A stretch of DNA of 64,000 nucleotides from Eledone cirrhosa (taxonomy: Eukaryota). Both the position numbers and the translations under genes were made by a program. Location of the stretch: the NCBI GenBank assembly GCA_964016885.1, contig OZ024756.1, positions 40,982,001 to 41,046,000 on the forward strand, read 5' to 3'. The notes under the pieces were generated by a model. That model was not told where the DNA came from. It saw only the letters and a program-made list of their open reading frames with translations, and made no database searches. Each line of letters starts with the position of its first letter. The first letter of the stretch is position 1. Below, piece by piece: positions 34,458-36,998 of this stretch.

Positions 34458-36998
34458 CTACAGCATACCTTCCTCTGTTTCAACTTGGTTTTCTCCATTA
34501 GGAAGTGACTGTACATCCTGTGAATGACTTATCACATTGGACTCATTGTCCATATCTGCAGACACAGAACTGCTATTTTCAGTTGGAATTATGGGTTTCT
34601 GTACAGGTAATTCCTCCGTTGCAACAGTTGGTTGCTGAGAAATTTCAGAATTATCTTTAACTACAATAGATTCTTTGTCATCATCAGCAACAGGCACTTG
34701 TTCAACAGAACCAGAAATGTCTATCTGCTCAGCACTGCTTGGACCATTCTCTGTAGATTTATCATTTGCTATTTCATTTTCAGCTGCTACATCCTCAGTG
34801 TCACTGTCACCCTCTCCAGGTGTTATTTCAACATCACCTGTTGGTCTTACTTCTGTTGCTATCGTCTCTGCTGCTTCTTTTACTTGTTCAGCCTCGTCAG
34901 CTGATACTTTCTCTTCTTCTACATCACTGCTATTATCCACATTTGTTTCAGGTTCTGAAGGGGTTGTCTTTTCAATTTCAACTAAAACTGATCCAACTTC
35001 TGTCTGTTCTACCTCAACAGTTTCCTCCTCTTTTTTTTCTTCTGATGGAATTTCCTCTTGTACAACAGCTTCTTGTTTTTCTACTTCCTCTTCAGTTTCC
35101 AAATCTTCTTTGTGGGGTTCTTCAACCACAGCCTCTTCTGGTTCTCCAACTTCTGCCTCCTTTGGTTCTTCAACCACAGCCTCTTGAGACTCTTCAACCT
35201 CTTCCACTTGTGATTCTTCAACTGCAATCCTTTGTTGTTCTACAGCTTCATGTTGCTTTTGCTCAATTTCCTGGTGAACCTCTTCTAATACTGCTTCTAC
35301 TAAGCACTCTTCGTAGGGTTTTTTAACTGGTTCTTCAACAACTGTTTTCTCTTCAGTATCCACTAAAACTGGGCTTTCTGTTGATTGTATCTCTTCAGCA
35401 ACAGCTTTAACAGCAATAGCTGCTTCTTCTGTTGGAAGTAATAAGTCCTCTTCATAGGCACCTTTAGGAGAAGGTAATGCTGAAGGTACTTCAGCTGTCA
35501 TTAAATCAGCTGACAAAATATTGTTAGATTCAGTATGTTCACTTTTGAAGATGTCTTCAGTTTTCTCTTCATGAGACTCTTCTTCCACATGTGGTGGTGG
35601 AGGAGGAGGCAAGCTATCTTCTACTTGTTGAGCAGCGGTCTCTTCAATTTCTTGCTTTACAGTATCAACAATAGTGTCTACACTGGTCTCAGTGACAGCT
35701 TCAACAATGTTTCCACTGTCAACACTGGTTTCTTGAAGTTCAACCTTCGGCATAACCAGTGCATCAACACTAGTTTCAGTAGTGTCAGGTTCAATAACCT
35801 TACCACTATCCACACTAGTCTCAGCATCGTCCAAATCAAGGGGAACAGCTGGAATATCAACAGGTTCTTCTTTAGCAACTTTATCTTCAATAAGTTCTTT
35901 AACATCACTACTATCAACATCGGATGTAACTACAGTAGATGATTCATCTTTATTAGTTGGAAGAAATTTACCAATTAGAGAGGAGGGCAATGATTCAGAG
36001 ACGGTTGAAATAACAGTGGCTACTTTCTCTTCCACGACAGGAACAACCACTTCTTCGACTTTATCAGCAATTTTAGACACACCTTCTTTTACCTTTTCCG
36101 AAGCAACATCTACAATACCAGCTACACCTTCTTTTGATTCACTTTCAACTTTTTTCACTTCAGTAACTGTTTCGGAGACAGTGGTGATAATTGGCTCAGA
36201 TTTAATTACTTTGCTGGACTGTTCACTGAAATGTTGTACCTCAGTGACTACATCATCTTTCGTAGGAGCTGATTCAATAGCAGAGCCAACTGAGTCTGAA
36301 AATTTACTAACAGATGAAGTAACTACTGTTTTATATTCTTGAGTGGAGCTGCTTGTTACTTTGCTTACTGATTCAGTTGCACTGCTTGTAATTTTGGTTA
36401 CGGAATCTGATATATTGTTACTAAGCGTCTTCACAGAATCGTTAGTACCAGACACAACTTTACTAACTTGCTCAGAAGCACTACTTGTAACTTTGCTCAC
36501 TTCTTTAGTGACCAAAGTCTTACATTCTTCAGTAACCGACTTCACAACTTCAGATGCAACCTCCATTGCAGTTGCTTTAATATCTGCAGAAACATCTTTT
36601 GTCTCAACTACAACATCATCAGCTTTCTTCTCAATAGTAGATTTAACTTCTTTAGTCACTTCTGAGACAGTTGAAGCAGCTTCAGATGTCGCAGATACTA
36701 CTTCATCTTTCTTCTCCTCAATTGCAGCTTCAGCTTTAGCAGCTTCTGAGCTTACAGCCTCTCCGGCATCTGTCACATTTTTCAATATGTCCAACTCAGT
36801 TTTATCTAATTGTAAAGCTGCAGTTCCTTCCTTGTTCACCTCAACACTAACCCCTTGTAAAAGTGGTTCTTGAGCATTTTCCCCAGAAGCTGCAGGACGT
36901 TCAAATAATACATTTTCTTCATTTTTTTCAACAGGCTTATCAACTAAATTCTCTTCCTCAGCCTCTTTTTTGGCTTGTTTTCCTAAAGAACACCCCAT
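34458..36998 (-). CDS. Intronless 846-aa acidic, probably disordered, putatively N-myristoylated/palmitoylated membrane-associated protein
   Basis: 2541-bp ORF in non-repetitive DNA. ATG context AAG-ATG-G with an in-frame TAA 12 nt upstream. N-terminus MGCSLGK; E/V/S/T/K-rich with no Trp; diverged protein-level repeats. Long S/T/F-rich antisense ORFs are its mirror image. Confidence 0.9.
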   Translation of the reverse strand: MGCSLGKQAKKEAEEENLVDKPVEKNEENVLFERPAASGENAQEPLLQGVSVEVNKEGTAALQLDKTELDILKNVTDAGEAVSSEAAKAEAAIEEKKDEVVSATSEAASTVSEVTKEVKSTIEKKADDVVVETKDVSADIKATAMEVASEVVKSVTEECKTLVTKEVSKVTSSASEQVSKVVSGTNDSVKTLSNNISDSVTKITSSATESVSKVTSSSTQEYKTVVTSSVSKFSDSVGSAIESAPTKDDVVTEVQHFSEQSSKVIKSEPIITTVSETVTEVKKVESESKEGVAGIVDVASEKVKEGVSKIADKVEEVVVPVVEEKVATVISTVSESLPSSLIGKFLPTNKDESSTVVTSDVDSSDVKELIEDKVAKEEPVDIPAVPLDLDDAETSVDSGKVIEPDTTETSVDALVMPKVELQETSVDSGNIVEAVTETSVDTIVDTVKQEIEETAAQQVEDSLPPPPPPHVEEESHEEKTEDIFKSEHTESNNILSADLMTAEVPSALPSPKGAYEEDLLLPTEEAAIAVKAVAEEIQSTESPVLVDTEEKTVVEEPVKKPYEECLVEAVLEEVHQEIEQKQHEAVEQQRIAVEESQVEEVEESQEAVVEEPKEAEVGEPEEAVVEEPHKEDLETEEEVEKQEAVVQEEIPSEEKKEEETVEVEQTEVGSVLVEIEKTTPSEPETNVDNSSDVEEEKVSADEAEQVKEAAETIATEVRPTGDVEITPGEGDSDTEDVAAENEIANDKSTENGPSSAEQIDISGSVEQVPVADDDKESIVVKDNSEISQQPTVATEELPVQKPIIPTENSSSVSADMDNESNVISHSQDVQSLPNGENQVETEEGML

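What the first reader, a model, noticed from the sequence alone, without database searches (positions are those of the whole stretch)
34458..36998. Unrecognised dual-acylated acidic disordered protein
Seen: MGCSLGK start, no recognisable globular domain, very high Glu content and a single coding exon. Known: Gly2+Cys3 is the myristoyl/palmitoyl signal of G-alpha-i/o and Fyn-type proteins, and acylated acidic disordered proteins (GAP-43, BASP1, MARCKS, AKAP12) organise neuronal membranes in vertebrates. Inference: a lineage-specific functional analogue with a modular layout of lipid anchor, amphipathic repeats, ETSVD repeats, polyproline and acidic tail. Residue 6 is Gly rather than the preferred Ser/Thr.
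Basis: partly seen in the sequence, partly recalled or inferred. Interest (0 to 1): 0.7.

Follow-up and report, generated by a model that had tools for sequence, protein, structure and literature searches.

The report
Lipid-anchor exon of octopus Sp17
This stretch lies inside the octopus Sp17 gene and is likely an alternative first exon that swaps Sp17's usual docking domain for a predicted fatty-acid membrane anchor and a long acidic arm, which would place Sp17's calmodulin-binding repeats at membranes much as GAP-43 does in nerve cells.

Summary
The 846-codon ORF is real and conserved in three Octopus species (about 85% identical; first 54 residues invariant where aligned). It is not a lone single-exon gene. 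It lies in the intron of the genome's Sp17 (SPA17) gene, between the RIIa docking exon 85 kb upstream and the ETGHDP exon plus seven IQ motifs 64-176 kb downstream. It ends in a phase-1 donor, the same phase as the RIIa exon. O. sinensis RefSeq isoforms join it to the IQ exons, and an Argonauta model joins RIIa to the same exons. Mussel and scallop Sp17 models show the same swap with short MGxxxS exons. RNA-type contigs of related octopods cover the exon and run through the donor; one run also breaks exactly at it. So two products are likely: a lipid-anchored multi-IQ form and the IQ-less 846-aa read-through form. Best mechanism: predicted myristoyl/palmitoyl anchor plus 11-mer amphipathic helix put a calmodulin-binding Sp17 tail on membranes. 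It would work like GAP-43 but is not a member (0 of 7 IQ motifs carry the PKC serine). Acylation, tissue and calmodulin binding are untested. I found no description in ten paper searches.

The parts
36999..37540 (-). 5' leader, continuous with the ORF; likely extends to about 38350 or beyond (own promoter inferred, start not mapped)
   Evidence: X7 record 16 runs unbroken 35191-37540; X1 record 6 and X11 record 11 run on in one contig with a replaced segment before 37179; the three records go on 815-866 letters past 37540, where a microsatellite may break them
34469..36998 (-). Coding part of the likely alternative first exon of Sp17 (843 codons + 1 base, phase 1). Partner exons lie outside the window in G000:C17 (-): RIIa exon 41104200-41104047; ETGHDP exon 40952237-40952170; IQ exons 40935692-40935602, 40891685-40891608, 40867461-40866994, 40850086-40849925, 40843458-40842892
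36978..36998 (-). MGCSLGK: predicted N-myristoylation (Gly2) and S-palmitoylation (Cys3) motif; strong start context (A at -3, G at +4), in-frame stop five codons upstream
   Evidence: sequence; identical in O. bimaculoides, O. vulgaris, O. sinensis; acylation inferred
36279..36758 (-). Residues 81-240: 11-mer amphipathic helical repeats (period 3.7) with small hydrophobic residues
   Evidence: p = 0.002, 500 shuffles; low-confidence helix
35676..35822 (-). Four ETSVD repeats (residues 393-441)
   Evidence: all four conserved
35592..35609 (-). PPPPPP (residues 464-469)
34470..35591 (-). Acidic, mostly predicted-disordered arm (residues 470-843); indel-rich at about 600-740, nearly invariant over the last 100 residues
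34463..34469 (-). Phase-1 splice donor G|GTATGC; a 64.2-kb intron to the ETGHDP exon is inferred
   Evidence: junction TEE|ETGHDP in O. sinensis isoforms; X7 contig break at 34469
34458..34469 (-). Read-through end GML-stop of the short, IQ-less 846-aa form
   Evidence: the same end in O. bimaculoides XP_014778084 and O. vulgaris CAI9737864
33000..34457 (-). Likely 3' UTR of the read-through form (intronic for the spliced form); AATAAA at 33856, 33728, 33109
   Evidence: X1 contig 33910-35072, X7 contig 33436-34498, X22 contig over the whole stretch and about 2.1 kb further

Best explanation
The ORF lies in the intron between the RIIa exon and the ETGHDP exon of the octopod Sp17 (SPA17) gene and is likely an alternative first exon that replaces Sp17's AKAP-docking domain with a predicted myristoyl/palmitoyl anchor and an 840-residue acidic arm, so that the spliced product would hold up to seven calmodulin-binding IQ motifs at a membrane. 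Shown: position, strand, matching phase-1 donors on both first exons, and the downstream ETGHDP and IQ exons. Taken from relatives' gene models: both joins (MGC exon to IQ exons in O. sinensis; RIIa to the same exons in Argonauta). Inferred: (1) own promoter upstream of 37540; (2) Met removal, Gly2 myristoylation, Cys3 palmitoylation; (3) the 11-mer helix lies on the lipid surface as a second contact; (4) the acidic arm is a spacer; (5) the IQ motifs bind calmodulin, likely at low calcium, making a membrane-side calmodulin store as GAP-43 does, but without GAP-43's PKC switch; (6) when the donor is skipped, the IQ-less 846-aa form is made, a membrane-bound acidic protein in its own right. One gene would thus give a ciliary/flagellar RIIa form, a membrane IQ form and a membrane IQ-less form.
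For: Homologues: O. bimaculoides 859 aa and O. sinensis 1185 aa with IQ; four O. sinensis isoforms with 3-6 IQ. Exons collinear on the same strand in G000:C17. RIIa exon at E 8e-10, 85 kb upstream, reading MSVPFSNT..., 154 coding bases, phase-1 GC donor; it is the only Sp17-type hit among the 5 RIIa hits (judged by eye). The Argonauta model RIIa+DTGHDP+IQ matches these exons, and its best PDB hits are Sp17 (E 5e-26). Of 150 stored proteins 60 carry the ETGHDP-type motif: 53 after RIIa, 4 after the octopus MGC exon, 3 after short bivalve MG exons (Mytilus trossulus, Mizuhopecten, Pecten isoforms X2). In run X7 one contig begins exactly at 34469 (depth 157) and overlaps the read-through contig (depth 79) by 30 letters, as a splice branch would give.
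Against: No read or contig showed the spliced junction itself; all four runs are contigs and their RNA status is a guess or unknown. X22 (near-identical, may be this DNA's source) and X1 run through the donor unbroken, so the read-through form may dominate. O. bimaculoides and O. vulgaris models end at GML-stop. No RIIa-start isoform of an Octopus species was seen (one search gave only Argonauta and a fragment). Two small O. sinensis exons have no clear match here; a 35-base candidate is weak. Residue 6 is Gly, and there is no polybasic cluster (net -6 in residues 1-60). 0 of 7 IQ motifs have the IQxS serine. Tissue unknown.
Confidence: 0.72

Rival explanations
1. Functionally a stand-alone, single-exon product nested in the Sp17 intron: the IQ-less 846-aa read-through form is the working protein, binding membranes through the acyl anchor and 11-mer helix with an acidic tail (synuclein- or BASP1-like), and splicing to the IQ exons is minor.
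For: X22 and X1 contigs pass the donor unbroken, and the region behind the stop is conserved enough to be laid from other species. Two species' models end at GML-stop. 11-mer periodicity.
Against: Four O. sinensis isoforms splice here; the X7 break at the donor has about half the depth missing from the read-through side; bivalves show the same MG-exon-to-ETGHDP join. GML conservation is partly explained by the donor sequence.
Confidence: 0.18
2. The ORF is an internal exon behind the RIIa exon, entered at the AG five bases before the ATG (window 37003, in frame with phase 1), so MGC is internal and not acylated.
For: The AG is in frame and the donor phases fit.
Against: Weak pyrimidine tract (7 of 15); contigs of three organisms continue upstream through this place, one without any break; all seven Octopus records seen start at MGC; strong start context.
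Confidence: 0.04
3. Same gene structure, but the membrane form serves sperm or cilia (anchoring calmodulin or spacing the flagellar membrane) rather than neurons.
For: Sp17 is a fibrous-sheath and ciliary protein (PMC11276731 and PMC8339350, passages); no tissue data were obtained.
Against: RNA-type runs of several organisms and studies hold part of the stretch (three laid), which would be less expected for a sperm-only exon; tissues are not on record, so this is weak.
Confidence: 0.2

Closest known systems
SPA17 / Sp17 (sperm autoantigenic protein 17; R2D2 docking-dimerization family)
   Same: Same gene by exon content: RIIa exon, the conserved segment behind it (ETGHDP...YN, matching KTNFDP...FYNN of Sp17) and IQ motifs.
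   Different: The known protein is about 150 aa with RIIa and one IQ. Here a second first exon removes the RIIa helices, adds an acylation motif and 840 acidic residues, and the tail has seven IQ motifs; the read-through form shares no Sp17 domain at all.
GAP-43 / neurogranin / PEP-19 / Drosophila Igloo (calpacitins; family list from PMC9618489 passage)
   Same: Acidic, extended, IQ-bearing; predicted N-terminal lipid anchor as in GAP-43 (recalled). The DLxDP..AAxKIQxxFRG context gave a PEP-19 hit (E 5e-4).
   Different: Encoded by Sp17; 0 of 7 IQ motifs have the PKC serine; multi-IQ; far longer; no similarity outside IQ found; expression unknown. Igloo's sequence was not examined.
BASP1 / MARCKS (myristoylated acidic proteins; recalled)
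   Same: Gly2 motif, acidic, predicted disorder; fits the IQ-less form.
   Different: No basic effector domain in the ORF; Cys3 present; no sequence similarity found.
Bivalve Sp17 X2 isoforms (XP_063441376, XP_021374262, XP_033758759; automatic names only)
   Same: An MG-start segment replaces RIIa at the same ETGHDP junction.
   Different: 31-36 residues, MGxxxS plus basic residues, no Cys; the octopus exon's first 60 residues show no similarity to the Mizuhopecten isoform, the one compared. Their genomic exon positions were not checked.
Alpha-synuclein / perilipin 11-mer amphipathic repeats (recalled)
   Same: 11-residue helical periodicity followed by an acidic tail.
   Different: Analogy only; no family match.

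Membership tests
SPA17/Sp17 gene | N-terminal RIIa-type D/D domain with the MSxPFSNT flank | tested here: met
   At the locus: exon at G000:C17:41104200-41104047, Pfam RIIa E 1e-13. Absent from the products that start at this ORF.
SPA17/Sp17 gene | Conserved segment after the helices (residues about 52-75) | tested here: met
   ETGHDP exon, 46-48% identical to bivalve and chiton Sp17; aligned to vertebrate Sp17 through the Argonauta protein; more diverged in octopods.
SPA17/Sp17 gene | C-terminal IQ calmodulin-binding motif | tested here: met
   Seven IQ motifs in five exons; Pfam IQ over cut-off for the two exons scanned.
SPA17/Sp17 gene | ORF exon is spliced to the Sp17 exons in this species | tested here: inconclusive
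   Phases fit; joined in O. sinensis models; contig break at the donor in another organism; junction not seen.
SPA17/Sp17 gene | AKAP binding, ROPN1L heterodimer, ciliary or flagellar location | not testable with these tools
   Known for SPA17 (PMC8339350 passages); not expected for MGC-start forms.
GAP-43/neurogranin (calpacitins) | IQ motif in an acidic extended protein | tested here: met
   Spliced form only; the 846-aa form has none.
GAP-43/neurogranin (calpacitins) | PKC-site serine inside the IQ motif (IQxS) | tested here: not met
   0 of 7 motifs in G000. Teleost neurogranin also has Gly there (PMC9415131 passage), so the feature is not universal.
GAP-43/neurogranin (calpacitins) | Homology outside the IQ motif | tested here: not met
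   The ORF finds only Octopus proteins and no PDB chain.
GAP-43/neurogranin (calpacitins) | Neuronal expression; calmodulin bound at low calcium | not testable with these tools
   No tissue labels in the runs listed.
Dual-acylation (G-alpha-i/Fyn-type) N-terminus | Gly2 at a true N-terminus plus Cys3 | tested here: met
   Sequence, upstream in-frame stop, continuous 5' contigs, invariant in three Octopus species.
Dual-acylation (G-alpha-i/Fyn-type) N-terminus | Ser/Thr at residue 6 | tested here: not met
   Gly6, Lys7. Recalled, no call: the PROSITE myristoylation pattern admits Gly here and Lys7 is favourable.
Dual-acylation (G-alpha-i/Fyn-type) N-terminus | Actual myristoylation and palmitoylation | not testable with these tools
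   Needs labelling or mass spectrometry.
BASP1/MARCKS | Basic effector domain binding calmodulin or PIP2 | tested here: not met
   No 60-residue block of the ORF has net positive charge.

The most novel reading that the evidence does not exclude
Sp17 has an old second life as a membrane calmodulin buffer: a myristoylated first exon replacing RIIa was present before bivalves and cephalopods split (an ostracod multi-IQ protein starts MGNLFSRIK, much like bivalve MGGKFSRLK), grew to 843 codons in octopods, and serves as the mollusc GAP-43 counterpart in neurons. The calpacitins (neurogranin, GAP-43, Igloo) would then be Sp17 offshoots that lost RIIa, in line with the recalled, unchecked fact that human NRGN lies next to SPA17.
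Probability: 0.2. Interest if true: 0.78.

Novelty: new variant of a known kind. Interest (0 to 1): 0.5.

Why it matters
Sp17 is described as a small sperm and cilia docking protein. An exon swap that trades its AKAP-docking domain for a lipid anchor, seen in models of octopus, mussel and two scallops, would give one gene two addressing systems for the same calmodulin-binding tail. It offers a concrete candidate for a GAP-43-like protein in cephalopods, which are models for nerve growth and regeneration, and a testable route from Sp17 to the calpacitins. It also corrects database names (golgin-like, IgA1 protease-like, titin-like) that hide the gene's identity.

Tried and rejected
No RNA holder listed as such; X1, X7, X11 are guessed RNA and X22 is unlabelled, so expression is suggested, not shown. 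Only window 33000-37540 was laid, so promoter and poly(A) site are open. Contig ends near 38350-38400 were rejected as a transcription start because a microsatellite lies there. The poly-A loose end at 34058 in X11 (depth 5) was rejected as too weak. The 'joints' before 37179 are replaced segments, not introns. A Pfam IQ search of G000 rang nowhere, controls included, so it is uninformative; the exons came. tblastn of the O. sinensis tails against the window gave only His-repeat noise: no IQ exon lies inside the window. Weak Pfam hits CTD6 and DUF725 are under cut-off. The ESM Atlas gave no answer for the ORF or its homologue. No fold search was run on the pLDDT-38 model. No complex prediction: IQ-calmodulin is a textbook pair. 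Squid, cuttlefish and Nautilus could not be examined; their absence may reflect library cover or fast divergence. Four look-ups of earlier findings returned nothing. Neel and Young 1994 (Igloo) and Lea 2004 (Sp17-AKAP3) are not held.

Full report
Observation. Window 34458-36998 (-) is one open frame of 846 codons starting MGCSLGK. The other two frames of the strand hold 51 and 132 stops; chance expectation is about 8e-21. The protein is 18.4% Glu with pI 4.1, four ETSVD repeats and a six-proline run; residues 81-240 have a hydrophobic period of 3.7 (p = 0.002, 500 shuffles), residues after 345 do not. No Pfam family reaches cut-off, no PDB chain matches, and AlphaFold on three sequences gives mean pLDDT 38 with low-confidence helices only. 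The window is G000:C17:40982001-41046000 of a 3.0-Gb genome; its protein is 85% identical to those of Octopus bimaculoides and O. vulgaris, with residues 1-54 invariant, so the organism is an octopod. A full HMMER search of 1.84 billion representatives found only the O. bimaculoides protein.

The ORF is not a lone exon. The homologue search returned 2 proteins, one of them a 1185-aa O. sinensis protein with IQ motifs. Its cluster holds four RefSeq isoforms that share the N-terminal 835 residues and continue TEE|ETGHDP into 3-6 IQ motifs, plus an O. vulgaris model ending GML-stop like ours. In the window the codons GML-stop overlap a donor, GAAG|GTATGC, in phase 1. The downstream exons lie on the same strand and in order in G000:C17: ETGHDP (40952237-40952170, phase 1 to 0), IQ1 (2 to 0), IQ2, IQ3-4, IQ5 and IQ6-7 (all phase 0), with canonical AG/GT ends. 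A 0-to-2 exon is needed between ETGHDP and IQ1; a 35-base candidate at 40946324-40946290 fits but scores weakly, and one further small O. sinensis exon was not found.

The gene is Sp17. Searching with the IQ tail gave 422 proteins, 120 listed, including many mollusc RIIa-plus-multi-IQ proteins in which ETGHDP directly follows the RIIa domain. A Pfam RIIa search of G000 gave 5 hits. One lies 85 kb upstream of the ORF on the same strand, reads MSVPFSNTKLRVP..., has 154 coding bases and ends in a phase-1 GC donor. The other four look like PKA RI, two RII and a CATIP-like protein (by eye; names recalled). An Argonauta hians model joins the RIIa exon to DTGHDP and to the same IQ exons, and its three best PDB matches are Sp17 (E 5e-26 to 3e-19). 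Both candidate first exons therefore end in phase 1 before one acceptor.

The swap is not confined to octopods. Of the 150 proteins stored, 60 carry the ETGHDP-type motif: 53 after RIIa at position 52, 4 after the octopus MGC exon, and 3 after short MG-start segments in Mytilus trossulus, Mizuhopecten yessoensis and Pecten maximus isoforms X2, whose sister isoforms start with RIIa. These begin MGGKFS or MGTKFS with basic residues following, a textbook myristoylation motif (recalled). The one compared (Mizuhopecten) shows no sequence similarity to the first 60 residues of the octopus exon, so shared ancestry or convergence is open. All are gene models; I did not see their read support.

Transcription. 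No run is on record as RNA. Four runs were laid on 33000-37540. X1, X7 and X11 (guessed RNA, other organisms) cover most of the ORF and the region upstream of the ATG within single contigs, which argues for a first exon with a long leader and against entry at the weak in-frame AG at 37003. X7 has one contig starting exactly at 34469 (depth 157) that overlaps by 30 letters a contig running into the intron (depth 79): the pattern of a splice branch, though the spliced branch itself was not shown and 18 pieces were not listed. X1 and X22 pass the donor unbroken; X22 is near-identical, unlabelled, and may be this DNA's source. X11 has no cover at the donor. Contig depth is not expression. The reading is that both the spliced and the read-through forms exist.

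Mechanism. Shown: anatomy, exon order and phases. Inferred: Gly2 myristoylation and Cys3 palmitoylation (Gly6 is not the preferred Ser/Thr, and no basic cluster assists), surface binding of the 11-mer helix, a spacer role for the acidic arm, and calmodulin binding by the IQ tail. The spliced form would be a membrane-side calmodulin store; the RIIa form the usual AKAP-docked ciliary or flagellar protein; the read-through form an IQ-less membrane protein. It would work like GAP-43 but is not a member: 0 of 7 IQ motifs carry the PKC serine and nothing outside IQ is homologous.

Literature. Passages seen, no whole texts: PMC11276731 (Sp17 has RIIa-like, carbohydrate-binding and calmodulin-binding domains); PMC8339350 (SPA17 1-75 structure, ROPN1L heterodimer; the words exon, calmodulin and myristoyl do not occur in its main text); PMC9618489 (calpacitin family incl. 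Igloo); PMC9415131 (zebrafish nrgnb also called spa17; teleost Ser-to-Gly); PMC6917273 (igloo called the invertebrate GAP43-like gene). Ten searches showed no title or abstract start describing an acylated Sp17 isoform; 'SPA17 + octopus' gave 0 papers, 'Sp17 + myristoyl' 16, of which 15 were listed and none opened. Subscription papers are not searched, and supplements of PMC8339350 were not opened and may list mollusc Sp17. Recalled without a call: human NRGN lying next to SPA17, the 154-base first coding exon of human SPA17, an MGC start of Igloo, GAP-43 Ser41, synuclein and perilipin 11-mers.

Verdict. A real, conserved exon of a known gene in an apparently undescribed arrangement: new variant of a known kind, interest 0.5.

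Noticed in passing
G000:C17:40834496-40831080 and 40829644-40827650 (-), L016-L017: Two long open frames (1138 and 663 codons) of RRSS/SPR repeats just behind the last IQ exon, with 34 and 23 [RK][RK]x[ST] (PKA-type) motifs and near-identical 3' ends; possibly large phospho-repeat exons of Sp17 or a separate duplicated gene.
   Followed up: partly
G000:C17:40822089-40821950 (-), L017-L018: Short acidic terminal-exon candidate after an AG, weakly like the end of O. sinensis isoform X4.
   Followed up: partly
L030:1497-1650 (-): The Sp17 RIIa exon ends in a GC donor (AAAG|GCAAGA), a GC-AG intron; a weak donor could favour regulated first-exon choice.
   Followed up: no
L041:919-1431 (+) and 8691-9407 (+): Upstream neighbours on the opposite strand: a HIT zinc-finger frame (under cut-off) and a methyltransferase frame (Pfam MTS over cut-off; looks N6AMT1/HemK2-like, recalled).
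   Followed up: partly
G000:C17:40916394-40915720 (-), L008: 225-codon frame of PEATDAAPETTEDA repeats in the intron between IQ1 and IQ2; exon or minisatellite, undecided.
   Followed up: no
L013:4994-5461 (-): The IQ3-4 exon carries a poly-His run and His-rich stretch conserved in O. sinensis and Argonauta; possible metal or pH sensing.
   Followed up: no
P0023, P0060, P0104, P0106: Arthropod multi-IQ proteins come with either an RIIa start (P0023, and the copepod P0060) or an MG start (Daphnia MGSGISLCC, ostracod MGNLFSRIK); whether they are the same gene was not tested.
   Followed up: no
window 30536-31111, 42831-43761: Long ORFs made of simple tri-nucleotide and minisatellite repeats; not genes on present evidence.
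   Followed up: no
window 36999-38330 (-): The inferred leader holds 12 upstream ATGs in 1332 bases, which may limit translation.
   Followed up: no
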